Origin: Podarcis pityusensis
Taxonomy: Eukaryota
Length of the DNA stretch: 64,000 nt
Strand: one strand, 5' to 3'
Assembly (NCBI GenBank): GCA_964106645.2
Contig: OZ067048.1
The first letter of the stretch is position 1. Each line of letters begins with the position of its first letter. The translations under genes and the position numbers were made by a program. Of this stretch, positions 1-62,514 are shown one piece after another. The notes beneath the pieces were generated by a model. The model worked only from the letters and a program-made list of their open reading frames with translations, had not been told where the DNA came from and made no database searches.

Positions 1-213
1 GTTCTGGAGGTCCATACTTAACCTGAAACTGTTCTTAACCTGAAGCACCACTTTAGCTAATGGGGGCCTCCTGCTGCTGCTGCGCTGCCGGAGCACAATT
101 TCTGTTCTCATCCTGAAGCAAAGTTCTTAACCTGAAGCACTATTTCTGGGTTAGTGGAGTCTGTAACCTGAAGCGTATGTAACCTGAAGCGTATGTAACC
201 CGAAGTACCACTG
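1..213 (+). mobile_element. Tc1/mariner-pogo(Tigger)-like MITE, left end cut by window edge
   Basis: Ends in GAAGTACCACTG followed by TA (214-215). Body with repeated TAACCTGAAG matches the intact copy at 51135-51360. Confidence 0.85.
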
Positions 214-1367
214 TACTGGCTTATTTTCAGCAAATTTGATTGCCGGCTTCCTCTGTCATCTCCAGTTAGTTATATAAGCCACACAGGTGTAAAGTTGAAA
301 TTCTTAAAGCCTTTTTCACCCATCTGTAATAAAAACACTTTGATATCTCCTATGAGTTTTACTTGACAAGAATGTTTTATAGTACGGCAGGTATTTATGT
401 ATAAGTGTGTGTAAAGTAGGGAAGTACTTTGTTTGAACTTTGTTGCTGTTGTAAAAATGTTTCATTAACCTTTACAATTAATGCCAATATGGTTTTACAA
501 CATTCTGCAAATCCCCCTGATACCAAGTGAAAAGTTCTTAAGACTGTTTTACAGCATGATGAACACAGCAGTCTTTTCGCTCACTATACACTCCATATTT
601 TTAAATGAACAGCCATTATTATCAACTGTTCTCTGACAGAAGTAGCATTCTAAACCCACGGTCTGATCTTATTGATCTGCTGTTCCACTATAAAAATACA
701 GTGGATTTTAAGGGGCAACTAGGTGCTCCTGAATTGCAAGGTATAGAAAACTACAATCCCAAGGAAGGAGAAACCTGGAATACCTCTTTTAGTTCAGCGG
801 CTGGTTCCCCTACCCAGTGCCAGCATATAACTGTATTTTTCACCCTACATAGGTGAATTCTGAGTCCTTGGCCTCCTCTTCACATAACACTCTGCACCTT
901 ATTCTCTCTGTTGGTCCTTCCCCCCTCCCCCACCCATGTTGGGAAGGATTTTGAATTTTGCTGCCCTTCTCCTTTTGCTGTCCCCCAAATTTTGTGTCCC
1001 CCCCCAAAAAACCCTTCTTTTTCTAGTGGTTATCTGAAAGAACACCTTCCCCTCCTTGAGGAATATTTTTTTATTTGTTGCTTAGCTTACTAAAATTTTA
1101 TTTTTTTGTCCCAAAGTGACTTACGTTTTTTTAAAAATGGACAATAACAAATTAAAATACATCAAAAGAAGTCATGGGAAGAAACCAATTTACTTCTTGT
1201 GGTGTACCCTACAGACAATGGAAATTTATCTTATGACAACTTGGAAGGTTGCCTTTCTTCATGTGGCACCCACATTGCGGACTGGTCATCCTCTGGAAAT
1301 CGGGCAGGCAGCAATAGTATCATGTCAGTAAAATTATCAGTTTATTTAGGCCTCCCTAGACCTCTGA

Positions 1368-1632: not shown

Positions 1633-1983
1633 AAAGGTAAATAGACCCCTGACCATTAGGTCCAGTCGTGGCCGACTCTGGGGTTGTGGCGCTCATCTCT
1701 CTTTATTGGCCGAGGGAGCCGCCGTACAGCTTCCGGGTCATGTGGCCAGCATGACTAAGCCGCTTCTGGCGAACCAGAGCAGCGCACGGAAACGCAGTTT
1801 ACCTTCCCGCCAGAGCAGTACCTATTTATCTACTTTCACTTTGATGTGCTTTCGAAATGCTAGGTTGGCAGGAGCAGGGACCGAGCAACGGGAGCTCACC
1901 CCATTGCGGGGATTCGAACTGCCGACCTTCTGATAGGCAAGTCCTAGGCTCTGTGGTTTAACCCACAGCGCCACCCGCGTCCC
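1633..1983 (-). mobile_element. Sauria SINE (POM/Squam1-type), full length
   Basis: Minus strand starts GGGACGCGGGTGGCGCTGTGGGTTAAACCACAGAGCC, has a GGCAGTTCGAATCCC B box and ends ...GGTCAGGGGTCTATTTACCTTT. Confidence 0.9.
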
Positions 1984-1995
1984 TACAAATATGTA

Positions 1996-5689: not shown

Positions 5690-6038
5690 GGAAGTTTCAT
5701 CTATTGTTTAGCCTAATCTTGTTTCCTGAAACTTCCACCTGTTGGTTCTTGGTCTGCCCTCTGCAGAAACAAGCAGTAAGTCCGCTCCTTCTTTCTGCAT
5801 GACAGCCCCTCACCACCATAATGATGCCCCATATCCACCTTACCTTCTCCAGACTAATCATACCCAACTATTTCAACTGTTTGCTACATGACTTGGCTTC
5901 CAGATCCCACACCATCTTTGTTCCACCCTTTCGATGTGCTTCGTTTTGTCAATAACTTATTTAAAATATGTCACTCTTAATTGGATGCTGTATGTGGTCT
6001 GACCAGCAGGGAACAGAGCAAAACTATTTCCTCTTATG
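5690..6038 (-). mobile_element. Old CR1 LINE fragment that hosts the 6039-7725 insertion and continues at 7726-~7800
   Basis: Antisense CR1-like text (…TTAAAATATGTCACTC…TGTGGTCTGACCAGCAGGGAACAGAGC…ATTTCCTCTTATG|ATCTGGAC) is continuous across the TSD. Confidence 0.55.
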
Positions 6039-7725
6039 TTTTTTTTTTAAATGATATTTATTAAGATTTTCAAAGATACAGAAAGTAAAGATTAAAATAC
6101 ATTCAAAGCCTTATTTTCATAGATCCACTTTCCGGGACTCCCCCCTTCCCCCACCCCTACCATATTCCCCTTTCATATTGTTGGCTCCACAAGCTCTCAG
6201 TTCTAATTAAAACTTAATTTGTTTAAACCATTATTCGAATTTAAAATTTATACACTCCTCATCAATACCCTTAATAAAAAACAAAAGTTCTCTCCCCAGG
6301 GCCCACCCCATTTTCATTCCACAATTTCCCTTTTTTTTAAAAAATAAGGACACCCCACACAATAGAAATATAAGAAATAAGAAATAAAAAGTATAATAGG
6401 TGAAAAAGAGCCAGTTCAGAAAAAAAAAAAAGTTGACAAGCCTTTGGATTTTAGTTCTCCCCCCCCTGTCCCCGGTTTAATTTCCCCCTGACCACCAAAC
6501 CATGTTATCTGCCTGGAATTCTTAAAGTCCATAAATCACCTATTTCCCCCAACTCCTTGCTGGCTTTTTCTTTTTATAGTTATTTTTTAAGACATTTAAC
6601 TTCAAATCTTTAATAAAACTCCCCCCATTGTTCTTTCCAAGTTGTAGTCCAATTTCCTCTTGTTCCGCTGCTGAAACGTTCTAATTCAGAAGTTTAGTAA
6701 CTCTGCAGGGATTATTGTTATTCAGGAACAAAAACTTGCGTTCAGTCCCTTCCTTTCTTCAATAGAAAATTCTATTGTCTCCTTTAGCTGAACACCCTGT
6801 AGACAAAATATTATTTCCGTTTTGCAGCTTTCCCAGAAGATAACCAGTCCTGTAAAATTCCAATGGTATTTTTCCACTTACGACCATCTTTGTAATGTCC
6901 CGAAACTCCTCTAGGGGGATTGTTGTAACTTTGTTTTCTCTAGTCCAAAAGTCCGATTGTTATCCATGTTTTCGCCATTTTGTATCCAAGTTTTAACGGG
7001 TTATAGCAAATTGTAACAAATTTAACCAGCAAAGTTCTCATAATAAGATCCTCTCTGCTTTCCGACTTTGACAGCTACTTTGACAGCTGTCAAAATCTCC
7101 GACTCTTTTCACCAGGCTCTCTCTTCAATCACCCCGGTTCCCAGGGGGGGGGGTCACGTTTCCCTTCTCCCTCAATTCTTCCTCCAGCACAGTTCTTGTA
7201 GTTCCCCATCGTGGAATTCTTAGTTTTTATCAGCAATACAAATCTTTTTGGACCTTGGTTTCCACCATCCTTGTTTTGGAAGATTTACAGTAGGGAGGGG
7301 GACTGACTTCCTTTTTGGATCCCCCCCCCGCTCGTGTCCAATCCGAAAAAAAAATTTTTTTTTTTCCTCCTTTTGAACCCGGTTTCCAAATTACTCACGG
7401 GTTGTTGTTAAGAAGTCCGAATTTTCAATAGAAGAAGTCAGCGCTCTCCGCCAAATGGCATGCGGCTTCGCTCGGCAGGGATAGCAGAGGACTCAAAGCA
7501 CCACGCTTCTCCCCGGCACCCGATCCGTAGCCTTTAAAAAGGCTCCTTCACGAGTCGGGAGGGCGCTAGCGGTGCCAGCCGAGTCTCCATGTCCACGGCC
7601 TCCGTGGCCGTGGTTTTTAAGGGTCCCCGCATCGCCGGTGCGGTAGGACCCAGCCCCTGCCGAGCAGGCTCCCTCCGGAGCTCGGAGGGAGTCCGCCATT
7701 CGGCGATGGCGCCAACCCGGAAGTC
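6039..7725 (-). mobile_element. Full-length non-autonomous L1-derived retroposon, copy A (~1.69 kb)
   Basis: 20-bp TSD CAAAACTATTTCCTCTTATG (6019-6038, 7726-7745). CpG-rich 5' end GACTTCCGGGTTGGCGCC. 3' end AATAAATATCATTT+poly(A). No long ORF. Same termini as 30807-33505. Confidence 0.85.
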
Positions 7726-10093
7726 CAAAACTATTTCCTCTTATGATCTGGACTCTGTGCTTATGTTAACACAGCCTTACAAGTTCATCACGTTTTTTAT
7801 CAGCCACGTCAAGCTGCTTGACCTTCAACTGAGGCACTTAGCGCAACTTTGAATTCTTCCCTATTTTGAATGATTTGTCAGTGCAAGCTCTCCAGCTTGC
7901 CAAACCGGCAAAAGGGGGGGGGGGATATATAACAGCTCAGCTCAGGTGATCTAGGAGCTTGAACAAAGAGAAAAGAACAACCCAGCAAAGAGAAAATGAG
8001 TTCAAGCCATGAACTCATCCCAATAGCCACAGATCCATCCATCTTTGCCATTTACAACACACTCCTGTTGGCTCACTCTGGTCACTAATTTCCTGTAAAT
8101 GGACAGTGGTTTTTTTTTTTTTTTTACAGAGATGACCTGCCTCAGCTGTGGGCTTTTGGAAGAGATCCTATGCATACTGACTTTGAAGTAACTCCTTTTT
8201 AATTTCCATGGAAGATACTCCCAAGTAAATATTATTAGGACAGGTTTTATACTGAGCTAGTGGCCATTCATACAGCATAAAACCTACCTGATGGATTCTT
8301 TTCTGCCTTCACTTGCATTCTTTTCTCCCCCTCCCTGTAGTTTCTGGTTACACCCCCCCTTCAATTAACTTTTGCAATAATTATGTTGTTTTTTTAAAGT
8401 GCTTCAAGTGATACTCGTTTTCTAACTCTGAAGGTTTCTGAAGGAGGCAAGAATGGCCTTCTGAGCTGTTAAGACTCTGGAATAAAACAGTAAATCAAGT
8501 CACTGATATGACTTATATATCACATTAAACACAGGGAATCCACCACAAAATCATTACACTAAAAAGCGACACTTTTGATTGATTAAAATGGTTTGGGCTG
8601 GATAGTGTTAAATCACTGTGAGTGATGTGACATTACAGTTTTACATATCATATTTCTGTCAAGACAATGAAGGTAAAAGGCATTGTCATCAGACGATAAC
8701 GGACAATGAGAGGAACCCTTGTGTTAGATTTATGGCTTGGTTTAGATTTAGAAAGAAGTAATTCTTACCTTGTGCCACTTATCAAATGACTGTAAATTCA
8801 ATGATGATGTAAAATTCTAAGGCAGAGCCACTTAGAGTTTTGACAAAGTGCCAGCTATAAAGTATTTACTGTTCTCAATGGTTCTGCCTTGCACACTTAA
8901 ATATTTATCAGAATCATGGACCTTTCTGATAAATGTTCCTGATCTTTGCTGCTGTTTTTTTAAACTTGGATGGTTATTATTTTTAAACGGAAGTTGGCCT
9001 GGCATTTCTGTAACAATTCTAGCTATCTTAATTAAAATATTAAAAATACAGAAAAAGCTGGAGTTTTGCTTGCCAAGTAAATCTTCATAGTTTGTATAGC
9101 TGGCTGCCCTTGTAGTATCGGACTGCCCTAACTACACGAACTGGTCAGCATTGTGGGCATGGAGCATGGCTAAAGCCAGAGGTGTATCAGACTTCCCAGT
9201 TGTGATTTATGACTCTGCTGATAATTTCCCTGGCTTTTAATTTCAAAGACGTACCCATTCTCTGTGGTTGCGTTCAACAACATTGTTACTAACAATACAC
9301 ATTTTAATGATGGCATTTGCTAAAGTAAGATATGCTTAGCAGAACGCATATTTCAGAATGCATTATATCTCAGGGTGGTTTTCTGTATTCTCCTTAAGAA
9401 TATGGAAGTATATATTTCCATGTCTTATGAGGGCATGGAAATGTAGCATTGGAAGGATTGCATGTTCATCACACACAGAACTCTTAGAAACTTTTGGATA
9501 GCAATGTGACTTTTGGAACACATGCTTGTTGTCTTTTCCATCTTGAGATAGACGCCTGTTTCTTAGGTTTTGTGAATGCATCTGCTGAAGCCTGATCCAA
9601 GCAGAGTATTCTCTTTTGCTGCCTAGACTGATAGCTAACTGTGGTTAAACACAAATGAAATTTCATTCTCTTTATTGTATCTAAAGCCCAGTTGGTAGAC
9701 TCCTGACTTGGTGGAGTAAACTGGGTGGATGGCAACATGCTGCTCCAGCACCAAACCAGTAGGGTAGTCTAGAGCAATGGGTGACCCATCATCTCTCTTT
9801 CCCTCTCCTCCCCACCAGCTTATTAGTTACTTAGGGCAAGGGATGCAGTAGCCACACTGCCATCCATTCAGTATCTTCCTTGGCATTTTTAGCCTGTTTC
9901 CTCATCTAATCTCCCAGGCTTTTAAAGACTCAGGAGCATAGCATAAGTAGGGAAACAGTCACCCCTTGAGTGTATCCAGAAACCAGTACAGTTCACAAAT
10001 CCAACTAAGCTGTCTGTTTAAGGGACGTATAGCACAATGGGGTGTGTGTGTGGATTGAGTATGCACAAAGAAAAGGAAAGTAAAACACTAAAC

Positions 10094-19270: not shown

Positions 19271-20040
19271 TTACAGACATTGATAGAATGCTTTCAATAT
19301 ATTTCTTCTAATTGGTGCTCTTTGGATGAACTCATTAACTATAACATTAAACAGATCTCTTGGGAGACGGATCTTATGCCCATGCAGAAGAGCCAGATGA
19401 CTCAGTCTAGCCTGCCCCACGCTTGACCGCAGAAAGGCCTTTATTCTACGAAGGCATGAGAATGACCTTTCTGGTGAAACAGGTACAGTGAAGTCTATTC
19501 TAATCAGCTCTGTCAGTTCTGGTAGTATCTGTTGCATATATTTCCAATGTTTCTCACTCAGAAGATCTAACATCCTGAAGAACTGAAAGTTTAGCTTTCT
19601 GTACTCTGGGATTTTGTGTTTCAGGATGAAGCTGTACTATGGAAACATTACAGTCAGTTTTGTAAAAGCCTAAATTGTATAGCTGATATCCAGTATTCTG
19701 TGAGCAGAAATGTGCTTGTGCTTCTCCTTCCTCTCCCTGCCCCCTGCTGTCCCCCCTGCATCCCTCAGATATGCTCTGGAGGGTCCCTAGCTAGACATAG
19801 TTGGATATTCCTCTATCTTCTTTTCAACTTCTCCTATGGCTCATGTTTCAGATTTGCTCACGTATTGCCACACATCTGAGTAAAAGTGAGTGTAACTCCT
19901 AGTTATATTATCACCTGCTGTCTCATAGAATGCCTTTGATTGAAACTGATAAGGATCACATTCAGCATCAATATGCCACGGAGGTGTTATGAGACTGGAA
20001 AGAGCGGGACTCTCTAAATATAGGTCTTTTGCTGTCATAG
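19271..20040 (-). pseudogene. Decayed hAT transposase C-terminus (hATC dimerisation domain, ZMYM1/PRKRIR-like)
   Basis: ORF 19271-19573 contains LPELTELIRIDFTVPVSPERSFSCLRRIKAFLRSSVGQARLSHLALL, the hAT dimerisation signature ERSFS.L..IK..LRS.M.Q.RL..LALL. The upstream frameshifted segment (PPWHIDAECDPYQF..FYE) fits the preceding region. Confidence 0.8.
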
Positions 20041-23400: not shown

Positions 23401-23850
23401 TGTATTAACTTTGGGGCTGTTGAAGCTTGCTGGATAAAGAGTCACTCTCTAGTGCTGTTTTCTTAAACATGTGGAAAGATCACTCCTGTACTTAGCCAAA
23501 ATGAACAGATACAGCTAGGCTTAGTCTTCGGGGATCTCTCTGTAGAAATATGCAGAGCCTGTCCTTGGCTGTCTTCTTGCTAGGTATTCCTTGCAGATTC
23601 TCTGAAAAGCATAAGCTTATATGCAATATCATGAAAGCATGCACTGTTTCTAGCCAAAGACAAATAAAAGAATTTAAGCATGGATGCAGGCAGCACTTAC
23701 TCTCTCTGTGTAGACTGTCTGTTCCTCCTCCTGCTTAGAAATATTATTCAATACAACTAAATTATTGACTCTGCACTGGCCTCTTTCGAAACCACATGAA
23801 GGTGCTAGCAGGGACAGAGGCAGATTTAGGGTTCAGTCACACTGGGTGCA

Positions 23851-23991
23851 GGGATGTGGGTGGTGCTGTGGGTTAAACCACAGAGCCTAGGACTTGCCAA
23901 TCAGAAGGTCGGCAGCTCCCGTTGCCTGGTCCCTGCTCCTGCCAATTTAGCAGTTCGAAAGCACGTCAAAAGTGCAAGTAGATAAATAGGT
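23851..23991 (+). mobile_element. Sauria SINE, internally deleted and 3'-truncated
   Basis: Matches the 5' part of the 1633-1983 copy but lacks the B-box segment. Confidence 0.85.
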
Positions 23992-25518: not shown

Positions 25519-25997
25519 CTTTGTTGTTTAGTCGTTTAGTCGTGTCCTACTCTTCGTGACCCCATGGACCAGAACACGCCAGGCACTCCTGTCTTCCACT
25601 GCCTCCCGCAGTTTGGTCAAACTCATGTTGGTAGCTTCAAGAACACTGTCCAACCATCTCATCCTCTTTCGTCCCCTTCTCCTTGGGGACCAAGGAGGAT
25701 CTTTCCCAACATCAGGGTCTTTTATAGGGAGTCTTCTCTTCTCATGAGGTGGCCAAAGTATTGGAGCCTCAGATTCAGGATCTGTCCTTCCAGTGAGCAC
25801 TCAGGGCTGATTTCCTTAAGAATAGATCGGTTTGATCTTCTTGCAGTCCATGGGACTCTCAAGAGTCTCCTCCAGCACCATAATTCAAAAGCATCAATTC
25901 TTCGGCGATCAGCCTTCTTTATGGTCCAGCTCTCACTTCCATACATCACTACTAGGAAAACCATAGCTGTAACTATATGGACCTTTGTCGGCAAGGT
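25519..25997 (-). mobile_element. BovB (RTE) LINE 3' fragment
   Basis: Encodes YGSESWTIKKADRRRIDAFELWCWRRLLRVPWTARRSN…LQYFGHLMRR…WRVLVHGVTKSRTRLND, with a (CAA)n-type tail. Confidence 0.95.
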
Positions 25998-29828: not shown

Positions 29829-30039
29829 TCAGGTAGGTAGCCATGTTGGTCTGATGCAGTTGAAATATATATAAAAATAATAAAATTGTCCAGTAGCACC
29901 TTAGAGACCAACTAAGTTTGTTCTTGGTATAAGCTTTCATGTGCATGCACACTTCTTCAGATACTTCTTCTGAAGAAGTGTGCATGTAGACGAAATCTTA
30001 TACCAAGAACAAACTTAGTTGGTCTCTAAGGTGCTACTG

Positions 30040-30041
<2 letters not shown>
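29829..30041. mobile_element. Penelope-like element terminal fragment forming a ~72-bp-arm inverted repeat
   Basis: Arm TCCAGTAGCACCTTAGAGACCAACTAAGTTTGTTCTTGGTATAAGCTTTC…CTTCTTCAGA (29889-29961) and its reverse complement (29969-30041). This is the typical Penelope inverted pseudo-LTR arrangement. Confidence 0.8.
29927..29964 (-). ncRNA. Minimal type-I hammerhead ribozyme motif (Penelope-type)
   Basis: Minus strand: GTAT-CTGAAGA-A-GTGTG CATG CACAT-GAAA-GC-T-T-ATAC = stem I, CUGANGA core, stem II, GAAA, palindromic stub of stem III, stem I'. Confidence 0.6.

Positions 30042-30070
<29 letters not shown>
30042..30070. repeat. (AT)n microsatellite
   Basis: Direct reading of the sequence. Confidence 0.9.
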
Positions 30071-30137
30071 CTTTTTAATATATACAACATACTTGAGATA
30101 GGGCAACTATTGCTATTATTTCTTTATTCTCCTTATT

Positions 30138-30271: not shown

Positions 30272-30539
30272 CTCTAAAGGCTCTTTCACAAAAATTTTTG
30301 CAGGAGAATGTGTCATATATTCAGCTCTTGGGGTAAGATTTACATTTCTTGGGCCATGAGTAACTAGGAATATTGGCAAGAGTATGACTATGTGTAGGGA
30401 ACTAGTTTATATTGTGCACACGGTTGCACGTCTAGTACCATCTCAAAACCAGAGAAGATGGCTTCTTCACCAAACTGGAAGTTCAAGAGAGGCTTTTCTC
30501 TCTATAAATTATAGGATGGTGGAAAACCTACATCCTACC

Positions 30540-30806
30540 TTTGGTTTTCCCAGTAGTGATGTATGGAAGTGAGAGCTGGACCATAAAGAAGGCTGATCAC
30601 CGGAGAATTGATGCTTTTGAATTATGGTGCTGGAGGAGACTCTTGAGAGCCCCATGGACTGCAAGAAGATCAAACCTATCCATTCTTAAGGAATCAGCCC
30701 TGAGTGCTCACTGGAAGGACAGATCCTGAAGCTGAGGCTCCAATACTTTGGCCACCTCATGAGAAGAGAAGACTCCCTGGAAAGACCCTGATGTTGGGAA
30801 AGATGG
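30540..30806 (+). mobile_element. BovB (RTE) 3' fragment, left part, split by insertion
   Basis: Encodes VFPVVMYGSESWTIKKADHRRIDAFELWCWRRLLR and resumes at 33506. Outer TSD-like CCTTTGGTT at 30538-30546 and 33691-33699. Confidence 0.95.
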
Positions 30807-33505
30807 GACTTCTGGGTTGGCGCCTCTGGCAATGGCGGATTTCCTCCGATCGGGAGGAATCCGCTCCGTGGAAAAAAGGGTCTGAACCGCCATGGCGAGG
30901 CGGAGACCCATCAAAAACCACAGGCGGGAGAAGCGTGTGGACGTGGGATTCGGCTGGCACCTTTGCGCCCCCCCTACTCGCGGGGAACCCCGGTTTCGGG
31001 GATCCGGAGCGACGTGGGGTGAGTGGCGCGGTGCCTTGAATCGACTGCTTCTTTCACGGAGTGAAGCCGCATTGCTGTTGCCGGAGAGCGCTGACTTTTT
31101 CCTGTGGACAATTGGATCTTAAATAACTGTCCGTGAGTAGAACGGAAAATTGGATTAAGAAATTTCTTTTAATTTGACACTGAAGTGGGAAGGTGTAAAC
31201 AGGAAGACCGCCTTCCGCTTTTTGTAGATAGATTAAAGCAAAGACACGGCAAGCTAGAGTTTAGAAAGTCGTCCGTAAAGGATCAATTTTCATCATTTAA
31301 AATTACTGAACCCCCCTTGGAAGCAGGAGAAGAGGGGGGAACTTTTTCTGGACTGTTTAAACCTGCAGAAGAGAGTATAAAGAAAAGCAATTTTCCACCG
31401 TCTTGAACCTGGGAGCGGGGTGTCAGGACAGACATCTTTGGGAAGTTCATTGACTATAGACAAACATTTTTGACAGATAGTTAAAAGAAGAGAGACATAG
31501 TGATTCCATTGTTCCCCTTCGCATCTAAAAGGAACAAAATATTGACAAAATATCTGAAAAAGGAAACTTTGTTGTTAGATCTGCTTTAAAAAAAAAAAAA
31601 AGAGATGGATACAAATAGAAGCTTTTTCCCCTAGAGGGAGCATGAGAAACTGTTATTAAATCTGAACTGGGGAGCTTTGCAGCTGCAATAGATTAAGATC
31701 GTGGGATCAGACTCTGACCTTGCACAAGAATGTACTCGGAGGCTCTGGTGCTTGCCTTCTGCAAGACAAGTGCTTTATTGGAACAGTTACATGAAAAGAC
31801 GGATTTGATGACTGTTGCGATTGGAAATTTTGGACAAGCAGTGGGTATCTATATAGAACCCACTCAGGAATTAATCCAGGAGTGTGCTCTGACCAGATGA
31901 GGGAGGAGGTTGTTGCTGGACCTCGGGAGGCAGAGATGGAGGGAACTGTGGCCCAGCAGGAACATGAGTTGTTGGATCTGACGAATGAACCTGGAAAAAG
32001 CCAGATTTGGAGAGATAGAGTCTTGTTTGGCTTGGAGATGGGGGGCTGGATAGACCCCCCTATGCAGGGATGTTTTGACTTTTCAAGTCTGGCTTTGGGC
32101 CGGGAGGAGTTCGGAGTTGTGGGGGCCCTTAACTTTGGAGGGTCCACAGATTTTCCAAGGGTTTGGTGTCTCCGCTATGCGTGTGTGACGGGAAAACTGT
32201 TGATTCTCTCCCACATATAATGTTCAACTGTCCCCTACATAGCATAGCCAGGACTAAATTCCTGGGTCCTGCTTTACTGCGCTTGGTTGGCAGGCCTGCT
32301 GAGTCACATGCCGCACTACTTTTGCAGGATACAGATCCTTCTGTAACTCTGCAGGTGGCGAGATTCCTGAATGCGGTTATCTCACACACAAAAACCACCA
32401 AAAACAACAACATCAAAAACTAATCGGACAGTTTTGAAGAGAGTGCATGTCGGATCTCGTCTTCAGTTTTCCTTTTTCTGGGATCCGTCCCTTGGAGCTC
32501 TCCGGGCCCCAAGCTGTTATCTGGCTCTGCTCAATGACCCACCCCTGCATCATGGTGTTCACCTTCTGGTGCCGAATATATCGGTCCTTATGCCTCTGTG
32601 CTTTTATGTTTGTACATACTTTATGGGCTAATAGCCGTAAATAAATAAATAAACAAATAAATAAATAAATAAATAACTTTGGAAGGACCTTGAAACATGC
32701 TTTTAAATACCACATGGAGTTCATTGTTGACTATGGAAAAGGGGCTGATCTGTTGAGAAGGGACAAAAATATCGTCAAGCTGGAGTCTCCACGAATGAAA
32801 GGAGCAGAAGACAAAGTAAAATACAGGTATAAACATGAAGAAGACCTGCGGAAGGGACATGGAAGAGATTTAAGGGCCTCGGACATAAGGTCACCGGGTT
32901 GATGAGCTAGATGGATGGGATAGAAAGGACTGACAAAACCCGAGACCAGGAGGAAGAGACGTTGGATGAAGATTGGAAGAAAGTTTTTAAAAAATTTATT
33001 TAGGAAAGTTTTGTAAAATTAATGAGTATTAGAAAAATGTTGGAACGAAACTATTTGTCTTTAGCAGAAATGTTAAAAAGAATTATGTAAGAATATGTTA
33101 TGGTTATGAGAAATTGGTATAAATAAGATTTAAGTTTTAAGTTTTAGGGTTTTTTATGGTAAGATAAGGTTAAAATAGATTAAGGTAATTTAATGACAGA
33201 ATATTATGAAAGATGAAAAGGATTTGCTGAGATAATTAACAACTAGAATACAAAAAAGGGAGGTGTGAGGAGGTCGATGAAATAAGGCAATGACAGTTAA
33301 GGATTTGAGAATACTGGATCTGTTTTTAAATTTTTTTGTTTATTTCTGCTTTTTGATTTTGATGTATGATGTGTTTTGCTTTTGCTTTTTGATTTTGCTT
33401 TTTATCGATTTGTATTGTTTAATTGTTATCTGTTTTTTTCTTCTTTTCTTCTTTGTTTTTTTTGTAATCTTAAAATTCTCAATAAATATCATTTAAAAAA
33501 AAAAA
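30807..33505 (+). mobile_element. Full-length non-autonomous L1-derived retroposon, copy B (~2.7 kb including nested insert)
   Basis: 14-bp TSD GTTGGGAAAGATGG (30793-30806, 33506-33519). 5' end GACTTCTGGGTTGGCGCC. 3' end AATAAATATCATTT+poly(A). Only short ORF1-like and ORF2-C-terminal-like remnants (…RDQEEETLDEDWKK…). Confidence 0.85.
32146..32673 (+). mobile_element. RTE-X-like LINE 3' fragment nested in copy B
   Basis: Encodes RFSKGLVSPLCVCDGKTVDSLPHIMFNCPLHSIARTKFL…LLLQDTDPSVTLQVARFL (CxC..H..CP zinc knuckle). 3' GGCTAATAGCC hairpin, then (TAAA)n tail. Flanks TAACTTTGGAGGGTCC / TAACTTTGGAAGGACC are a putative TSD. Confidence 0.7.
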
Positions 33506-33691
33506 GTTGGGAAAGATGGAGGGCACAAGGAGAAGGGGACGACAGAGGACAAGATGGTTGTGTAGTGTTCTCGAAGCTATGAACATGAGTTTGACCAAAC
33601 TGCGGGAGGCAGTGGAAGACAGGAGTGCCTGGCGTGCTCTGGTCCATGGGGTCACGAAGAGTCGGACACGACTAAACAACTAAACAACAAC
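33506..33691 (+). mobile_element. BovB (RTE) 3' fragment, right part
   Basis: Continues the 30540-30806 copy through GTCACGAAGAGTCGGACACGACTAAAC and a (CAA) tail. Confidence 0.95.
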
Positions 33692-35672: not shown

Positions 35673-36042
35673 TATGGTGTTGGAGGAGACTCTTGAGAGT
35701 CCCATGGACTGCAAGAAGACCAAACCTATCCATTCTTAAGAAAATCAGCCCTGAGTGCTCACTGGAAGGACAGATCCTGAAGCTGAGGCTCCAATACTTT
35801 GGCCACCTCATGAGAAGAGAAGACTGCCTGGAAAAGACCCTGATGTTGGGAAAGATGGAGGGCACAAGGAGAAGGGGATGACAGAGGATGAGATGGTTGG
35901 ACAGTGTTCTTGAAGCTACCAGCATGAGTTTGACCAAACTGCGGGAGGCAGTGGAAGACAGGAGTGCCTGGCGTGCTCTGGTCCATGGAGTCACGAAGTG
36001 TCAGACACGACTAAATGACTAAACAACAACAACAAGAACAAC
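35673..36042 (+). mobile_element. BovB (RTE) 3' fragment
   Basis: Encodes RVPWTARRPNLSILKKISPECSLEGQILKLRLQYFGHLMRREDCLEKTLMLGKMEG. (CAA)n tail. Near-TSD AAGCATGCATA / AAGCATGGATA. Confidence 0.95.
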
Positions 36043-41649: not shown

Positions 41650-42008
41650 AGGTAAAGGACCCCTGGATGGTTAAGTCCAGTCAAAGGCGACTATGCGGTT
41701 GTGGCGCTCATCTTGCTTTCAGGCCAAGGGAGCCGGCATTTGTCCACAGACAGCTTTCTGGGTCATGTGGCCAGCATGACTAAACCACTTCTGGCACAAC
41801 GGAACACCATGACAGAAGCCAGAGCACACAGAAACGCTGTTTACCTTCCCGCCGCAGCAGTACCATTTTAACTACTTGCATTGGCATGCTTTCGAACTTC
41901 TAGGTTGGCAGAAGCTGGGACAGAGCAACAGGAGCTCACCCTGTTGCAGGGATTCAAACCACCGACCTTCTGATTGGCAAGCCCAAAAGGCTCAGTGGTT
42001 TGGACCAC
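41650..42008 (-). mobile_element. Sauria SINE, different subfamily from 1633-1983
   Basis: Shares GGTCATGTGGCCAGCATGACTAA, TTTACCTTCCCGCC and CTAGGTTGGCAG blocks with the 1633-1983 copy. Confidence 0.85.
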
Positions 42009-45692: not shown

Positions 45693-45872
45693 NNNNNNNN
45701 NNNNNNNNNNNNNNNNNNNNNNNNNNNNNNNNNNNNNNNNNNNNNNNNNNNNNNNNNNNNNNNNNNNNNNNNNNNNNNNNNNNNNNNNNNNNNNNNNNNN
45801 NNNNNNNNNNNNNNNNNNNNNNNNNNNNNNNNNNNNNNNNNNNNNNNNNNNNNNNNNNNNNNNNNNNNNNNN
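45693..45872. other. Assembly gap (180 N)
   Basis: Run of N. Confidence 1.
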
Positions 45873-48918: not shown

Positions 48919-49830
48919 GTTGTTGTTGTTTTTTTAAAAAATAATTTTTATTAAGTACAAATTAGAAAACATACATATTCACAACAAAAGAAAAAACAAA
49001 AGAAAAAGAAAATACATCTAACCAAGGAAAAAGAATTAGAGAATATTTTGTCTCTTTTCATATTTACAATTATTTATACCTCTATAAAATGCTATTCACA
49101 ATAAAGCAGTGAAATGAAAGATAAGATATCAGAAAAAAGAAAAAAAGAACAAAGAAAGAATAAAAAAGTAAAAGAAAAAGATCATAAGTGAAAACTTTTA
49201 AAAGTAGATAAGTACTCACAATACATAGCCGTTTCCCATCTATATTTATATTCAATTGTATAGTTTCATCTTGTCCTTATCTACCTTAAATAAATTGTTT
49301 GTTTGTTTGTTTAAAAAGACTTCCACCGTTTACCTCACGCGTTTTTATTAATCTGTTCGTCAGAACCTCTGTTCTTCATATTTTCCCTTTGGATTACCTT
49401 AATGTCTCACTTTGTATTTTTTATATTACACACAAGATTATTCTAAACACAACCAGATTTTTGTGGTTGAGCCCTGGTTTTGTAAATAATCATTTAAGCA
49501 CTCCCATTGCTTCATAACCATAGTTTTGGATTTTCTCCTTATTATATCCGTCAATTTTGCTAATTCCAGGTACTCGCAAAGTTTCCCCAACCATTCTCTT
49601 TTTGTTGGGATGCTGTCTTCTTTCAAATAGCTAGCAATCAAAATTATTGCCACTGTTGTCGCATATAGAAATAAGTTAGTTTTATCTTTTGAGATATCTT
49701 TATCTAGAATTCCTAATAGATATGCCTCTGCCTTTTTTTGTGTGAGATCCTTATCAATTTTTTTATTTCGTCATGGATCATGTCCCAAAAGGTTTTAATC
49801 TTTGGGCAGGTCCACCACATGTGGTATGGG
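48919..49830 (-). mobile_element. 5'-truncated L1 (ORF2 C-terminus, 3'UTR, poly(A))
   Basis: Encodes YHMWWTCPKIKTFWDMIHDEIKK (L1 zinc-knuckle end) and …IPTKREWLGKLCEYLELAKLT…KQWECLNDYL. AATAAAAATTATTTTTTAAAAAAA tail. Confidence 0.9.
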
Positions 49831-51134
49831 GACTAAAAATTTGGATTTCATATTCCACTTCCAACTTTGCCATCATGACTACAAGTAAAGTTATGGAAAG
49901 CAAAAATAATAATAAAATTACATCTTGGGTTGTGCTGAATTGTTAATTTGTTTGAACACAAATAGTAATTGCACTCTGATGTGCAGAATGATAACTTGAT
50001 TTTTGACAAATGGTGATACATTTATGCAATAGTTGTTTAAAAGTTATTTAGGCAAACTTTCTTTGAAAAATGTGTTGCAGAGTGGCACATGTTCAGAAAT
50101 ATCTCACAAAAGGCAAACAATTTAAAAATATTCTATAATCCTTTCACTGCTATTAAGAATTGTCAGAAGATTTAGCATCAAGTAGTCTGACTGAATTGAC
50201 CTTAAAGTTGATGTGAGCAGTACTGAGGAAGATTATGAAGTGATTTTGGGGGCATGTCTTCTGTAAACACCTTTTGTTCTTCTGTCAATACAAGGTTCAA
50301 AGAGCATCTGATGCTACGATAGCAGGGAACGTCATCATTCTTAGGTTGAAGCCAAGGTTTATGGAAAGCTGCGTTGGGATGAGTGACAGGTTAAGAAGAA
50401 AGACCTTAAGTCCTTTTCCCACAACCCCTTTAGTGTAAAAGCAGAAAGGATTTTTTCTTTCTTTGACTCTCTTAGATTAGTGATGCTGCTCTGCAACTCT
50501 CGTGGCTCCTCAAAAATCACAATGAGGACTTTGGTTTAGTTTCAGGGTCCCTGATTTGGATAGTTTAGAAAGTTAAAGAAATGTGGCATGGAGAACTTGT
50601 ATAAGATACTGGCACTTACATGGAACATTTGGTACCATTGTGGGTATATAAACTTGATGGCCATTGGCAAACATCTGCAAAGTAAACTAGAGCTGGAGTA
50701 CAAAAGAGTATAAAGTAGGAATTAAACATATTGTTGCAAAATAACACAGCACAGTTCTATGTATGTTTACTTGGAATTAAGTCCCACTGGGTTCAGTGAG
50801 GTTTACTTCCAGCGAAGTGTGTATAGCAAACATTGTATCCTTAAACAATTTTGGATTATTAGCTTGCAGTTCTACTAACTGCAAAAGTATCAAAGTAAAT
50901 ACTATCAATGTACAAGCATATGCAGAGTGATAAGTATGTGTACAGACTCATTCCCCCGCCACCACCACACACATATAAAGCTTCTTTGCTGGGCATTTTA
51001 CAACTCACTAGTGGTCTTTTGTATCAGAAAATTAGAAATATGAAATCAATCCAAACAGAGCAAATCCTGAATCTTCTATTAATATTTTCTGGCCACTTTT
51101 CATCATTTTGGAGCACACGTTTAAATAATCTGTA

Positions 51135-51360
51135 CAGTGGTACCTCAGGTTAAGTACTTAATTCGTTCCGGAGGTCCGTACTTAACCTGAAACTGTTCTT
51201 TACCTGAAGCACCACTTTAGCCAATAGGGCCTCCTGCTGCCACTGTGCCACCGGAGCACAATTTCTGTTCTCATCCTGAAGCAAAGTTCTTAACCCGAGG
51301 TACTATTTCTGGGTTAGCGGAGTCTGTAACCTGAAGCGTATGTAACTTGAGGTACCACTG
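51135..51360 (+). mobile_element. Intact Tc1/pogo(Tigger)-like MITE (226 bp)
   Basis: TIRs CAGTGGTACCTCA / TGAGGTACCACTG with TA TSD on both sides. Confidence 0.95.
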
Positions 51361-51720
51361 TATAAGATATGGCAATAGGAGCAGTAGATCAATGACTGTG
51401 CCTCATATCGGGCATCGATTGGAAATACGGCTCTATTTGTGCACATATTCAGGTTGGATTTGCACAGCCAATTCCTTTCCCACATAAGGTGACTTTTGTG
51501 GTCTTTTGTTGCAGGAAGATCTACCTAGAGCCTGGTAGAATATAAAATGTGTTGCATCTATTCCTATGATCTCATATGAATCACATGAATGGTGATGATT
51601 ACAAAAAAGAAAGAAAAATAGGAAAGCTTCAACTGTAGGTAAACAAAGTGATGAAGCTTGTAAGAATAAGACCATAGTACTGAAAAGCCCTTGGTGGAGT
51701 AAAATAATTTTTCATATTTC

Positions 51721-52400: not shown

Positions 52401-54103
52401 GAAATTTTAGGGGTCCGGATTCTGAAGGAGCTACAGTTCTTGATTTCTGTTTGCTTGGGTGCTCTCTTATCCCTTCGGCTGACAAATGAAAAAACAATGT
52501 GAGATGATAACATAAGGTACATAGTTCTTGTATGTTCTCAGAGGATGGGTTTTGTGTGAATGTGTGCGTATATAATCATTGTTACATTGCCCATACCTTG
52601 CTTTTCTAAGTCTCAAAAGCAGCAGGACCTTAATGTACACTTGTACAGTTAGGTGCATAAAGCAAGTGCCCTTTGGTGGTAGTTATTCTGGGTCTCTCTG
52701 TGGGTTCAGTAAGGATGTCTGTCTTGTTTAGCACAATAGCATTAACGGTGTTGTTCTTCTAGGTCAATGCTACTCAACCTTTACCAGCTGGAAAGCCACT
52801 TCAAATTGAATTTTTAAGAAGATATGAGATGCACATGTGCACACTTCAGCAGTTTCCACTGGTAGTCTTTAAGTGTATAAAATCCATTGCATACCGCAGT
52901 GAAAATTTAAAAAGAAGTGGAAAGATGTGCAGGGAAGAATTGTTCCTAACATAGTTAGAAACTTTAAAGCTTACGTGAAAAGGTTAGCAAATGTTTTTAG
53001 AGAAGATCCTAAAGTGGAAGTGGGAAAGTAGAGAAGAGTGATAAGCAGAGGAAAGAAGAGTTGCTGGAAATGTATCCCAAATATTGCATTGTTGGTCTTC
53101 TTGAGGAAAATTGAAACATCTTTAGCCAAAGGTGGAAATACATGTCAGCAAAGAAGCAAAATGAAGTGGTTATGAGTGACTTGGAGGAGGAAGAGCAGCC
53201 CGTAGAGCAGGGGTGGCTAGCTAGTGGACAGGATCCACTTTGCCAATCCATAGGCAAGAGCCTTCCAGCCCTGCTGCTTTCTCATCTGATCTGATTGGTA
53301 GATAAGGCACTCTGGCTGATCTTTTGATCTCAGGGGATAAAATCCTTCTGACTGCTCTTTAGAAGTCCTCTCTAAAGAGCAGTTGGAAGGATATTTTATC
53401 TCCCGTCTTAGCAATATGCACATCACAGTGCTGAGAACTGAGATAAGCGCTCTGCCCGCCGCTTAAGAGTAAAGGGCACCGTTTTCCGTATCACCTCAGC
53501 TGGAGTGGAAATGTTGACTTTGTTTGCACAGTGCTCAAGTTGGGAGCGCCGAAAATGCTGGGGGTTTCTTTTGTGTGTGAGTGTGTGTATGATGGCACAT
53601 GTGTGAGAAAGAGCATGTTTGACTGCATTCATGTCTGCATGTGAAAGGGATAGATACACTGCATGTCTGGTGAGTTTGTGTACTGTATATATGGCAAAGG
53701 TGCATGTGTGTGAATGTATGTGTTTGCGTGGCCAGACGCACCAGCTTGCGTGGGCAATTGGAGGAGAGGGCAATGTTGCATCTCCTTCCCTAAGCTGGGC
53801 AGAAGCTTCCCAGACTTTGGGAAGGAGGAGCCAGGTCTCTGACAGGATGCTGGAGTTCTGCTGTCGCCTTCTCAAAGCTGTGTGGGCTTTGGGAAGGTGG
53901 TGGAAGGGCTCTTTGACCCCATTGAAGCATGGCTCCGCCCTCCTTAATACAAAGAGAAATGTCATGCCTTGCAGAAAAGGATGTTGAGAGAGGATATTAT
54001 AATTTATTGGGTAAATACATTTTGTTTACATCTAAGAATGCTGAATCTGCTTAACACATCTTCTCCCTTTATCCTATATGTTAAAGTAGAATGAAAATGT
54101 ATA

Positions 54104-54738
54104 CAGTGGTACCTTCGTTCTCAAACTTAATCCGTTCCGGAACTCTGTTCCAAAACCAAGGCATGCTTTCCCGTAGAAAGTAATGCAAAACTGATTAATC
54201 CGTTCCAGACTTTCAAAAACAGCCCCTAAAACAGCAATTTAACATGAATTTTACTAACCAATGATGCCATTGATCCAAAAAATGAAAGCAATAATCAATG
54301 TGCTGCACTGTACTATAAAATAAGACAGTATTGTATATGATAAAAATTAAAATTAAATATTTTTCATACCCGCACTGATGATAGTCATTATTTGAATGGA
54401 GGGATTTTATCCATTTCCGCAGTCACACAATCAATCAGTAGCTGAACTGGGTTCTACACAGTCACAAAAACAAATTAACCGAAAAAGCCTCAGCAACAAA
54501 AACACAAAATAAATAGCGAAAACAAAAGTGCCAAACTTAATCCATTCCGGGAGTCTGTTTGACTTCCGAAATGTTTGAAAACCGAGGCGCAGCTTCTGAT
54601 GGGTGCAGGCACCCCAGAAACAATAGCCAACAACTGCATCGGACGTTCAGCTTCTGAAAAACATTTGAAAACCGGAACACTTACTTCTGGGTTTTCAGCG
54701 TTTGGGAACCAAGGTGTTTGAGTACCAAGGTACCACTG
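54104..54738. mobile_element. Longer non-autonomous Tc1/pogo(Tigger)-like element (635 bp)
   Basis: TIRs CAGTGGTACCTT / AAGGTACCACTG with TA TSD. Subterminal CTTAATCCGTTCCGG nearly identical to the MITE family. Confidence 0.9.
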
Positions 54739-56210
54739 TATTAGTATGAAAAAAGAGAGCCAGTGTGGTGTAGAAAGTTGGATTTGGACTATAGGGAGGT
54801 AATATCCCAGATCATTGGGTGGGGGGTGACGTTTATTGGTCTCTTCAGCATATCTCACAAGTTTGTTGCGTGCCTTAAGTAGAGAAATAACATGTGTTTA
54901 GAGGAACTCCTCAGGGAAAGGGTGGATACAGCTTTAACTTTAAAAAAAAATCCAATGTGAGAAGCCAATTAATGTTAATACACAATGGCAACTTGATCGA
55001 ACGTCCTTGCATCATCCATATTCTATTACTGGCTACATGGTCTCCTTAGTGTATTTCACATCTCTCCATTCTTCTGTGTCCTTTTTGAAATGCTCCTACA
55101 CAGAAAAGCATCTACATTTATTTTAGAATAGTTTGTCATTTTTATGTAATTGTAACTCAAGCTGCAATTTGGAAAATTTGTCTTATTTCCACTACTGAAA
55201 AATCATATTTTCTCAGTTACAGCATGTCAGAAATATAATTCATGTTAATTCAAAATACCTTAAGATATTTCTAAGTATTCTTCATTGTAGCAAACTGAAT
55301 ATTCCTTGAAAGGATTTTTGCACATTCAAAAGAAAAGAAGGGGGGAAAGGAGTAATTAACTGCTCTAAATACGCTCCCTCTTATAATAATAGGATGTCTT
55401 CAGTCAGATTTGCAGAATTTATTTTATTTCACTAATTGATTGGTATATTCATCATTCAAGGATATATTAGGTAGAGCTGGATTCTAAATGACTTTCCTCT
55501 GATAAGCCTTCCAATTAATTCTTCTCACACTGTTTTCCCAGTGACATTTGAACTTCTTTCATTATATAAAACACATCTTGAATAAGACATTGCTGAATAA
55601 TAATCAGGGATGCTAACATGTTAAGAATTAGACCCTGACAAAGTCAAATGTATTCTGATTTAGACAATGAGCTCAACTAATGTCATTTTCACTGTATCAT
55701 ACTGAAAGAGAATATATTCTTTCCCTCACTGCACATGTGTTGTTAATTTACAAATGTTTCAAGAAAAATATCTGGAGCATATTATAAATAGGGAGGAGGG
55801 ATAGACTCTTTTTTAATACTTAAGGCATACCATTTTGAGTTTTCCTTACATTTTTTTATTCCATGTTGTCAGGTGTTTGTTGTCTCCTTTTTGAAAAGGG
55901 ATGTCTTCATTTGGGCAAGCAGCCATCAAATAAGTTATTCTTTAAAACCCGTGTTAAATCATGTGCTAGGTTACATTTGCTTGCCAATTTGCATTTTCCC
56001 TAATACAGTCAGCAGATTTCCCTCACATAGACAGAGAGCACGGATAATATCGGATTTAACTGGCTGGCTAATACAAGGAGCAGCTCATTTTAAATGGTCC
56101 CTACATCTTTATAGGAAGTTAGAAATGAAGACATTACTTCAAAATGTAGGTAATTATTGCCTCCTCTTTTATCAGTTCTATTTTCTGAGGTATTATCATA
56201 AGATAGCACT

Positions 56211-56382
56211 NNNNNNNNNNNNNNNNNNNNNNNNNNNNNNNNNNNNNNNNNNNNNNNNNNNNNNNNNNNNNNNNNNNNNNNNNNNNNNNNNNNNNNNNNN
56301 NNNNNNNNNNNNNNNNNNNNNNNNNNNNNNNNNNNNNNNNNNNNNNNNNNNNNNNNNNNNNNNNNNNNNNNNNNNNNNNNNN
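56211..56382. other. Assembly gap (172 N)
   Basis: Run of N. Confidence 1.
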
Positions 56383-61920: not shown

Positions 61921-62491
61921 CAGTGGTACCTCGGGTTAAGAACTTAATTTGTTCCGGAGGTCCATTCTCCCCCCCCCCTTTTTAAATTTTTATTACATAA
62001 CAATTTCAACATAACAGTCCACTTAATTGATTACAATATCTTCCCCCTTTCCCCCCATCCCTCCTGCTCCCTCCCCCCAAAGACTTCCCTCAGCTCCCCT
62101 CTGATTTCTTTACACATATCATTCTCTGCATATTATAAAATTGTACATATCTTTATTTTGTCTATCATATGTTCACCTAATAAATTTGTGGATGTTTATT
62201 CAAAACCTGCCTAGGAGTCCAGTTCATTTTGTTGTCTTTTTAGATAATTTGTAAAAAGCTCCAATTTTTCCTTAAAGTCACAGTTGTCCTTGTCTGTTCT
62301 TAACCTGAAACTGTTCTTAACGTGAGGTACCACTTTAGCTAATGGGGCCTCCTGCTGCTGTGCTGCCAGAGCACGATTTCTGTTTTCATCCTGAAGCAAA
62401 GTTCTTAACCTGAGGTACTATTTCTGGTTTAGCAGAGTCTGTAACCTGAAGCGTCTGTAACCTGAAGTGTCTATAACCCAAGGTACCACTG
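61921..62491 (+). mobile_element. Tc1/pogo-like MITE interrupted by an L1 3' fragment
   Basis: TA|CAGTGGTACCTC…AGGTACCACTG|TA. The body matches 51135-51360 once 61969-62291 is removed. Confidence 0.9.
61969..62291 (-). mobile_element. Short 5'-truncated L1 3' end
   Basis: Encodes KDNCDFKEKLELFTNYLKRQQNELDS* (L1 ORF2 terminus-like), a G-rich 3'UTR and AATAAAAATTTAAAAA. TSD GTCCATTCT / GTCTGTTCT. Confidence 0.8.
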
Positions 62492-62514
62492 TAGTGCATT
62501 TGCAGTCATCCTTA

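What the first reader, a model, noticed from the sequence alone, without database searches (positions are those of the whole stretch)
6039..7725. Family of full-length, non-coding L1-derived retroposons (copy A here, copy B at 30807-33505)
Seen: two independent insertions with long perfect TSDs (20 and 14 bp). Their starts match at 17 of 18 nt (GACTTCYGGGTTGGCGCC) and their ends are the same (AATAAATATCATTT-polyA). Lengths are ~1.7 kb and ~2.2 kb (B without its nested insert), interiors are diverged, and neither has a long ORF. Copy B keeps a short piece like the L1 ORF2 terminus (RDQEEETLDEDWKK, compare the L1 ends at 49438 and 62211). The 5' end has ETS-like ACTTCCGG (copy A) and YY1-like AATGGCGG motifs, as in internal Pol II promoters. 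The perfect TSDs and CpG-rich leaders suggest young insertions, so coding decay probably happened in the master elements. Inference: at least two subfamilies of Pol II-driven, L1-mobilised non-autonomous elements (HAL1-like but without an intact ORF1). I cannot tell whether they are already catalogued.
Basis: partly seen in the sequence, partly recalled or inferred. Interest (0 to 1): 0.75.

Follow-up and report, generated by a model that had tools for sequence, protein, structure and literature searches.

The report
Shortened, parasitic LINE-1 elements in lizards
These are two young insertions of shrunken LINE-1 jumping genes in a lizard genome that have lost their own copying enzyme; one still carries a short, drifting reading frame also found in a wall lizard, so they look like a lizard version of the mammalian 'half-L1' parasites rather than purely non-coding elements.

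Summary
Both insertions are real: perfect 20- and 14-bp TSDs, poly(A) tails, a shared CpG-island leader and shared last 46 nt. The 5' end resembles the published start of lizard clade-1 L1s, and the 5' regions align weakly for ~800 nt. Copy B keeps only the last ~45 ORF2 codons (12 of 12 named Podarcis ORF2s match); endonuclease and RT are gone.

'Non-coding' fails for B. Without its nested insert, B has an ATG-to-stop frame of ~210 codons with one frameshift, where ORF1 would lie. A 201-aa Podarcis lilfordi protein matches it end to end (~75%), so B's shortened structure exists in a second copy. The frame shows no amino-acid constraint, no ORF1 motif or Pfam match and no confident fold, yet has fewer breaks than expected (P 0.001, or ~0.06 after ascertainment). 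Copy A has no ORF, and no second copy was found.

Best reading: Pol II-driven, L1-mobilised, HAL1-type non-autonomous elements at two stages of decay. Dfam/Repbase and lizard genomes could not be searched. New variant of a known kind; interest 0.5.

The parts
6019..6038 (.). Copy A target-site duplication, 3' side (20 bp, perfect)
   Evidence: sequence
6039..7725 (-). Copy A, 1687-nt internally deleted L1 derivative with no long ORF
   Evidence: longest sense stop-free run 81 codons; 540 of 1000 shuffles as long
6039..6084 (-). Copy A terminal 46 nt shared with B: AATAAA signal (6057-6062) and 10-nt poly(A)
6420..6690 (-). Copy A region with two competing, unproven ORF2-tail-like stretches (6613-6690; 6420-6604)
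   Evidence: post hoc tests 0 of 60 and 2 of 1000 shuffles; not significant when the whole element is scanned (6-43 of 60)
6906..7391 (-). Copy A distal 5'UTR, weakly homologous to B 31140 to ~31680
   Evidence: z 5.7-5.9; 277 of 417 aligned sites identical
7392..7725 (-). Copy A CpG-island leader (internal Pol II promoter inferred): GACTTCCGG start, AATGGCGG at 7693-7700, ending at a GTGAGT donor-like site (7393-7398)
   Evidence: CpG o/e 0.97 vs window 0.24; 5' consensus in PMC5381506 section 9
7726..7745 (.). Copy A target-site duplication, 5' side
30793..30806 (.). Copy B target-site duplication, 5' side (14 bp), inside an older repeat
30807..33505 (+). Copy B, 2699 nt (2155 nt without the nested insert)
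30807..31139 (+). Copy B CpG-island leader: AATGGCGG at 30831-30838, GTGAGT donor-like site at 31133
   Evidence: CpG o/e 1.0
31730..32902 (+). Copy B ORF at the ORF1 position, ~210 codons from ATG to TGA, broken by one frameshift (~31888) and the nested insert; matches the 201-aa P. lilfordi protein P0093
   Evidence: (E 5e-31)
32140..32683 (+). Nested 5'-truncated LINE fragment (534 nt plus second copy of a 10-bp TSD; Cys/His-motif C-terminal ORF; (TAAA)n tail)
   Evidence: TSD 32130-32139 / 32674-32683; no Pfam match; RTE-X-like class is recalled, not tested
32893..33029 (+). Decayed last ~45 codons of L1 ORF2 (one stop, one frameshift); the ORF's stop codon overlaps its first matching codons
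   Evidence: (12 of 12 named Podarcis ORF2s, E 1.8e-6 to 2e-3; 0 of 200 shuffles)
33030..33505 (+). Copy B 3'UTR with T-rich tract, AATAAA (33481-33486) and 11-nt poly(A)
33506..33519 (.). Copy B target-site duplication, 3' side

Best explanation
A and B are recent insertions of non-autonomous derivatives of lizard clade-1 L1, probably in a lacertid. A source element lost almost all of ORF2 but kept the long 5'UTR with its internal Pol II promoter, the extreme 3' end of ORF2, the 3'UTR and the poly(A) signal.

Such elements are transcribed by Pol II from the leader and polyadenylated at the terminal AATAAA. They are then copied by target-primed reverse transcription using ORF2p from an autonomous L1, which gives the TSDs and A-tails. 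(Shown: the anatomy. Inferred: transcription and trans-mobilisation.)

Lineage B is HAL1-type: it carries a shortened frame of ~200 codons at the ORF1 position, most likely a degenerate ORF1 relic that is open but not constrained in amino-acid sequence. Lineage A is a sister or parallel lineage in which no frame survives. Most divergence arose in the source elements, not after insertion.
For: - Retroposition hallmarks are perfect.
- The 5' end resembles the lizard clade-1 consensus GACTTCCGGTG-N8-ATGGCG, with a longer spacer (PMC5381506 section 9). B's ATG is at nt 924, inside the published clade-1 5'UTR range of 792-1465 nt.
- B's tail matches 12 of 12 named Podarcis ORF2s; no EN or RT remnant is found in A or B.
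- A second copy of B's frame exists with the same start and stop: P0093, 49 differences in 200 aligned codons, ~13-14% nucleotide distance if neutral.
- Insertions are young. Leader CpG o/e is ~1.0 against 0.24 for the window. 68 TSD sites are unchanged (pooled upper bound 4.3% per site). B sits in a repeat copy 92-94% identical to two others in the window. Yet the A and B leaders differ by ~23% substitutions, with 34 transitions and 39 transversions.
- Residues 14-44 of P0093 show heptad periodicity (11 of 300 shuffles) and the N-terminus is modelled as one long helix at pLDDT ~60, as an ORF1 coiled coil would be.
Against: - ORF1 ancestry is not shown: no Pfam family for the three sense frames of A or B or for P0093, none of 4 RRM motifs in P0093 within 2 mismatches, no PDB or Atlas relative, and no lacertid ORF1 was available as a positive control.
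- Only two copies are known for B and one for A.
- P0093 has no DNA context and is a gene model, so tiny introns could hide breaks and its internal deletion is inferred, not seen. An anchored test failed to extend ORF2 homology back into the shared frame.
- Neither target site has the mammalian TT/AAAA form.
- The autonomous partner was not identified: the window's two L1 3' fragments end differently.
Confidence: 0.68

Rival explanations
1. Plain functional HAL1: B's source encodes a working, fast-evolving ORF1p variant that co-assembles with L1 ORF1p, and A is a decayed copy of a similar element.
For: The frame is at the ORF1 position with the same start and stop in two copies. One frame break is seen against ~9 expected. 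There is a heptad signal. HAL1 is the known ORF1-only L1 derivative (PMC5753468, PMC5786205, passages).
Against: It is 201-210 codons against 342-367 for lizard clade-1 ORF1 (1026-1101 nt in the supplement table). RRM motifs are absent. Amino-acid changes are no more conservative than neutral (mean BLOSUM -0.67 vs -0.47 to -0.54). Models are low-confidence with no strands (pLDDT 40; 0.45). A is young yet has no frame.
Confidence: 0.15
2. One reading: both families are strictly non-coding, and B's open frame is a chance or lingering relic with no role.
For: The substitution pattern is neutral. Copy B itself is frameshifted. After allowing that P0093 was picked for being intact, the deficit of breaks is borderline (P ~0.06 for half the distance, ~0.2 for a third). 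A has no ORF.
Against: A stop-free run this long arises in 1 of 1000 and 5 of 5000 shuffles. It starts with ATG right after the 5'UTR, while the adjoining ORF2 tail has decayed to ~50% identity with a stop and a frameshift within 45 codons.
Confidence: 0.2
3. One-off products: each copy is a single L1 that lost its middle during integration, by splicing (SpIRE-like) or by later deletion, and was never a source element.
For: L1 copies accumulate internal deletions (PMC5872511, passages) and spliced L1 RNAs integrate (PMC5860796, abstract). A has no known second copy. Both leaders carry a donor-like site.
Against: Both copies retain the donor and the sequence behind it, so they were not spliced there. 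B's shortened frame recurs in P. lilfordi. The coding remnants are far more decayed than the age bounds allow. The only two L1-type leaders in the window both belong to short elements.
Confidence: 0.1
4. P0093 is the orthologue of copy B, or a domesticated host gene, so it does not show a family.
For: There was a single hit among 40 candidates, with one member sequence, and its locus could not be seen.
Against: The ~13-14% estimated distance exceeds the age bound from B's host repeat (6-8% between copies) and from the TSDs. No purifying selection is seen, as a host gene would show.
Confidence: 0.05

Closest known systems
HAL1 (half-L1) of mammals
   Same: L1-derived, keeps the 5'UTR and 3' end, lacks functional ORF2, and has one ORF at the ORF1 position (copy B).
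   Different: HAL1 encodes a recognisable ORF1p (HAL1 rows in the PMC12129022 supplement carry the RRM motifs). Here the frame is ~40% shorter, motif-less and drifting (B) or absent (A). The passages read place HAL1 in mammals; this is a squamate.
Lizard clade-1 L1 (Anolis L1_AC families; Podarcis ORF2 proteins P0082-P0092)
   Same: GACTTCCGG...ATGGCG start, long 5'UTR, ORF2 C-terminus, T-rich 3'UTR, AATAAA plus poly(A).
   Different: 1.7-2.2 kb instead of 6.2-6.7 kb; no endonuclease or reverse transcriptase.
ORF-less bipartite non-autonomous LINEs / SIDEs (Bov-A, RIME, RTESINE, R2 SIDE, Persaeus)
   Same: 5' and 3' parts of a LINE joined by internal deletion, Pol II-type head, mobilised in trans. 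Copy A fits this description.
   Different: PMC5786205 lists only RTE, Ingi, Vingi and R2 as sources of ORF-absent forms (CR1 added by PMC6740152; NARTc from trypanosome L1Tc is also named). Persaeus lengths seen are ~270-320 nt, against 1.7 kb here.
SpIREs (spliced L1 copies, human)
   Same: Internally deleted L1 with TSDs and poly(A); donor-like site in the 5'UTR.
   Different: SpIREs lose promoter sequence and are dead ends (abstract). A and B keep the whole leader and the unspliced donor.

Membership tests
L1 clade derivative | Homology to L1 ORF2 | tested here: met
   B: 12 of 12 named Podarcis ORF2s match 32893-33029
L1 clade derivative | Homology to L1 ORF2 in copy A | tested here: inconclusive
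   best E 0.17; whole-element scans 6-43 of 60 shuffles; post hoc windows suggestive
L1 clade derivative | Clade-1 lizard 5' terminus and long CpG-rich 5'UTR | tested here: met
   compared by eye with PMC5381506 section 9 and supplement; spacer 6-7 nt longer; CpG
L1 clade derivative | TSD, AATAAA and poly(A) tail | tested here: met
Autonomous L1 | ORF2 with endonuclease and RT | tested here: not met
   a 961-position ORF2 profile and tblastn with full-length ORF2s find only the tail
HAL1 | ORF2 lost, 5'UTR and 3' end kept | tested here: met
HAL1 | Single ORF at the ORF1 position | tested here: met
   B only; absent in A
HAL1 | That ORF is a recognisable ORF1p (coiled coil, RRM, CTD) | tested here: not met
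   no Pfam, motif, PDB or Atlas match; weak heptad signal only; no lacertid ORF1 positive control, so distant ancestry is not excluded
HAL1 | ORF under purifying selection | tested here: inconclusive
   amino-acid changes neutral-like; frame breaks fewer than expected, P 0.001 to 0.2 depending on ascertainment
ORF-less bipartite LINE (SIDE) | No ORF | tested here: inconclusive
   met for copy A, not met for copy B
ORF-less bipartite LINE (SIDE) | Many copies sharing one junction | not testable with these tools
   no eukaryotic genome collection; one extra B-type copy seen only as a protein
tRNA/7SL/5S SINE | Small-RNA-derived Pol III head | tested here: not met
   no Rfam match, no tRNA
Catalogued Repbase/Dfam family | Match to a library consensus | not testable with these tools
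   libraries not available

The most novel reading that the evidence does not exclude
Lacertid genomes host abundant long L1 parasites that span a gradient from HAL1 to fully ORF-less. In lineage B, selection keeps a reading frame open regardless of the protein it encodes, because being translated helps the RNA (ribosome contact to capture ORF2p in trans, or escape from nonsense-mediated decay). Lineage A would be an ORF-less bipartite element of the vertebrate L1 clade, a combination not listed in the reviews read.
Probability: 0.2. Interest if true: 0.75.

Novelty: new variant of a known kind. Interest (0 to 1): 0.5.

Why it matters
HAL1 is described from mammals, and ORF-less bipartite LINEs are described from clades other than vertebrate L1 (PMC5786205, passages). 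Lizard elements that sit between the two would show how an L1 parasite sheds ORF1, and whether ORF1p, mere translation, or neither is needed in cis. That bears on the question of how long Pol II RNAs overcome L1's cis preference (background knowledge). If abundant, they also scatter CpG-island promoters with a splice donor through lizard genomes, create spurious 'hypothetical proteins' such as P0093, and may be part of the ~12% of Podarcis DNA left unclassified (PMC10214862, table in the passages read).

Tried and rejected
Searches that found nothing:
- Pfam on the three sense frames of A and of B and on P0093: no relevant family.
- PDB sequence searches with two A frames, P0093 and alignment A2: no hit below E 0.45.
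- ESM Atlas: no usable hit.
- First homologue search with the window's own ORF2 end: none of 478 candidates scored.
- Scan of bacterial and archaeal genomes for a leader motif: 0, as expected.
- Rfam and tRNA scans: none.

Structure work: the AlphaFold model had pLDDT 40, so its Foldseek result (best E 4) is meaningless. The trimer prediction of P0093 residues 1-90 returned no verdict.

Ideas tested and dropped:
- That ORF2-tail homology reaches back into the last codons of B's frame, which would have proved a shared junction: no gain (156-300 of 300 shuffles as good).
- A-versus-B homology in the ORF region: z 0.7-0.9; tblastx found only T-rich UTR matches.
- The window's L1 fragments as partners: B vs the 62-kb fragment z -0.1; B vs the 49-kb fragment only through T-rich UTR (1 or more of 100 shuffles higher).

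Left open: cluster membership and names of the unnamed hits could not be queried; a six-frame Pfam scan of the whole window was not obtained; viral and metagenome contigs stayed unchecked; supplement FASTA lines are cut at 400 nt, so Anolis ORF1s and 3' ends could not be compared.

Full report
OBSERVATION. Copy A (6039-7725, minus strand, 1687 nt) lies between perfect 20-bp repeats, and copy B (30807-33505, plus strand) between perfect 14-bp repeats. The 18-nt start and the 18-nt end each occur exactly twice in the window, against 0.05 and 0.04 expected. BLASTN finds two shared blocks: nt 1-334 (70.6%, E 2e-25) and the last 46 nt (84.8%, E 1e-9). B holds a 534-nt nested insert with a 10-bp TSD and a (TAAA)n tail; without it B is 2155 nt. 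A profile of the two leaders finds no third leader in the window.

ORIGIN. The stop-free L1 end at 49441-49770 retrieved 75 unnamed proteins. An alignment of 40 of them with the query retrieved 12 named proteins, all from Podarcis muralis or P. lilfordi, three of them near full length with endonuclease and RT domains. A lacertid host is therefore likely but not shown. All 12 match copy B at 32893-33029, the last ~45 ORF2 codons, with one stop and one frameshift (E 1.8e-6 to 2e-3; 0 of 200 shuffles reach the profile score). Nothing else of ORF2 is found in B. In A the best hit is E 0.17. Two candidate tail-like stretches in A pass only in windows chosen afterwards and fail whole-element scans, so I leave them unproven.

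The published 5' consensus of lizard clade-1 L1 is GACTTCCGGTG-N8-ATGGCG, with 5'UTRs of 792-1465 nt (PMC5381506, sections 7 and 9). A and B begin the same way with a spacer 6-7 nt longer.

5' REGION. The strong A/B similarity ends at a shared GTGAGT donor-like site at nt 327-328. The Anolis leaders shown in the supplement have GTAAG motifs at roughly nt 290-365 (read by eye). A gap-tolerant alignment extends weak colinear homology to about nt 820 (z 5.7-5.9, 0 of 200 shuffles; whole interior z 3.8-5.0, 0 of 60), although a stricter test earlier saw none (z 0.4). A's downstream half does not align significantly with B's ORF (z 0.7-0.9) or 3' part (z below 0).

THE MISSED ORF. With the nested insert removed, B has a 187-codon stop-free sense stretch (1 of 1000 shuffles), whereas A's longest is 81 (540 of 1000). 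A search with the part before the insert gave one hit among 40 candidates: P0093, a 201-aa 'hypothetical predicted protein' of P. lilfordi, E 5e-31. It aligns with B from ATG 31730 to the stop at 32900-32902, at 76% and 71% identity on either side of one frameshift near 31888, with one in-frame 9-codon gap. The frame starts at nt 924 and its stop overlaps the first matching ORF2-tail codons, so it occupies the place of ORF1.

It is not a recognisable ORF1. It is 201-210 codons against 342-367, has no Pfam, PDB or Atlas relative, lacks the four RRM motifs tested, and is modelled at pLDDT 40 without strands. The only positive signs are its position, a heptad repeat at residues 14-44 (11 of 300 shuffles) and a long N-terminal helix. 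No lacertid ORF1 could be fetched, so ancestry remains an inference.

SELECTION. The 49 differences in 200 codons are no more conservative than neutral change from B's codons (mean BLOSUM -0.67 vs -0.47 to -0.54) and imply ~0.13-0.14 substitutions per site. Using 13 repeat pairs in the window as a yardstick (241 mismatches, 21 indels, 17 frameshifting), about 9 frame breaks are expected and 1 is seen (P ~0.001). P0093 was visible only because it is intact, and as a gene model it may hide breaks. Counting half or a third of the distance gives P ~0.06 or ~0.2. So the frame is open and perhaps kept open, but its sequence drifts.

AGE. Leader CpG o/e is 0.97 and 1.0 against 0.24 for the window. 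The unchanged TSDs bound divergence at 4.3% per site pooled (7% and 10% singly). B interrupts a repeat that is 92-94% identical to two other copies in the window (Bov-B/RTE label recalled). Against this, the A and B leaders differ at 73 of 318 aligned sites, B differs from P0093 by ~13%, and B's ORF2 tail is only ~45-58% identical to Podarcis ORF2s.

MECHANISM. Shown: full-length 5' ends, loss of EN and RT, signatures of target-primed reverse transcription, and a second copy of B's frame. Inferred from established L1 biology: Pol II initiation within the leader, polyadenylation at the terminal AATAAA, and integration by ORF2p supplied in trans. Open: the partner family, whether the shared last 46 nt are a recognition signal or only common descent, and whether B's frame matters. 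Neither target site is TT/AAAA; both have GAT just 5' of the TSD, which may be chance.

COMPARISON. The elements work like HAL1 (B) and like ORF-less bipartite LINEs (A). B fails the HAL1 feature of a recognisable ORF1p, so I do not file it as a plain member. PMC5786205 (passages) states that ORF-absent bipartite LINEs were reported only from RTE, Ingi, Vingi and R2, with HAL1 as the ORF1-bearing form from L1; PMC6740152 (passages) calls such elements rare. Ten literature searches listed no description of such a lizard family. The library lacks most subscription papers, including the original HAL1 paper (not seen; known through citations), and Repbase and Dfam were not searchable, so it may already be catalogued.

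Papers seen: PMC5381506 (abstract, sections 7, 9, 10, 13; supplement parts 1, 2, 5 and one search, FASTA cut at 400 nt); PMC5786205, PMC6740152, PMC5753468, PMC5203782, PMC5872511, PMC13295347, PMC10214862 (passages); PMC5860796 (abstract and outline); PMC12129022 (supplement list, two searches, part 2; main text not read); PMC7140322 (supplement list only).

VERDICT. Real, young, L1-derived non-autonomous elements. New variant of a known kind, interest 0.5. The boldest reading that is not excluded, an open frame kept for the act of translation alongside an ORF-less L1 parasite, has probability ~0.2 and would merit 0.75.

Noticed in passing
window 7393-7398 (-) and 31133-31138 (+): A GTGAGT donor-like site closes the CpG-rich leader in both copies. 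Anolis clade-1 L1 leaders show GTAAG motifs at a similar distance (by eye), which suggests a conserved 5'UTR splice donor in lizard L1s.
   Followed up: partly
window 32140-32683: Young 5'-truncated LINE fragment nested in B's frame, with a Cys/His-motif C-terminal ORF, a (TAAA)n tail and a 10-bp TSD; no Pfam match; RTE-X-like by recall only.
   Followed up: partly
window 30539-30806 + 33520-33691; 25521-25966; 35673-36030: Three copies of a repeat 92-96% alike (Bov-B/RTE 3' end by recall); B inserted into one of them.
   Followed up: yes
window 48925-49840 (-) and ~61970-62294 (-): 5'-truncated L1 3' ends (ORF2 C-terminal profile iE 1e-38 and 7e-4) whose termini differ from A and B; no TSD found.
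   Followed up: partly
window 19274-19636 (-): 121-codon frame with a weak match to the hAT C-terminal dimerisation domain (PF05699, E 6e-4, below the curated cut-off).
   Followed up: no
window 7746-7748 and 30790-30792: Both target sites have GAT immediately 5' of the TSD in element orientation, and neither is TT/AAAA; may be chance or a lizard L1 endonuclease preference.
   Followed up: no
window 1635-1987, 23847-23970, 41650-41984: Three related dispersed repeats 74-92% alike; Sauria SINE by recall.
   Followed up: no
window 1-218, 51132-51381, 54101-54740, 61918-62496, 29858-30072: Short elements with inverted ends (MITE-like), plus a 104-nt near-palindrome at 29858-30072; the L1 fragment near 62 kb lies inside one of them.
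   Followed up: no
window 7079-7110 (-): Copy A carries a palindromic TTTGACAGCTGTCAAA whose left arm recurs at the colinear place in B (31469-31476).
   Followed up: no
window ~45700-45870 and ~56200-56380: Two runs of N (assembly gaps).
   Followed up: no
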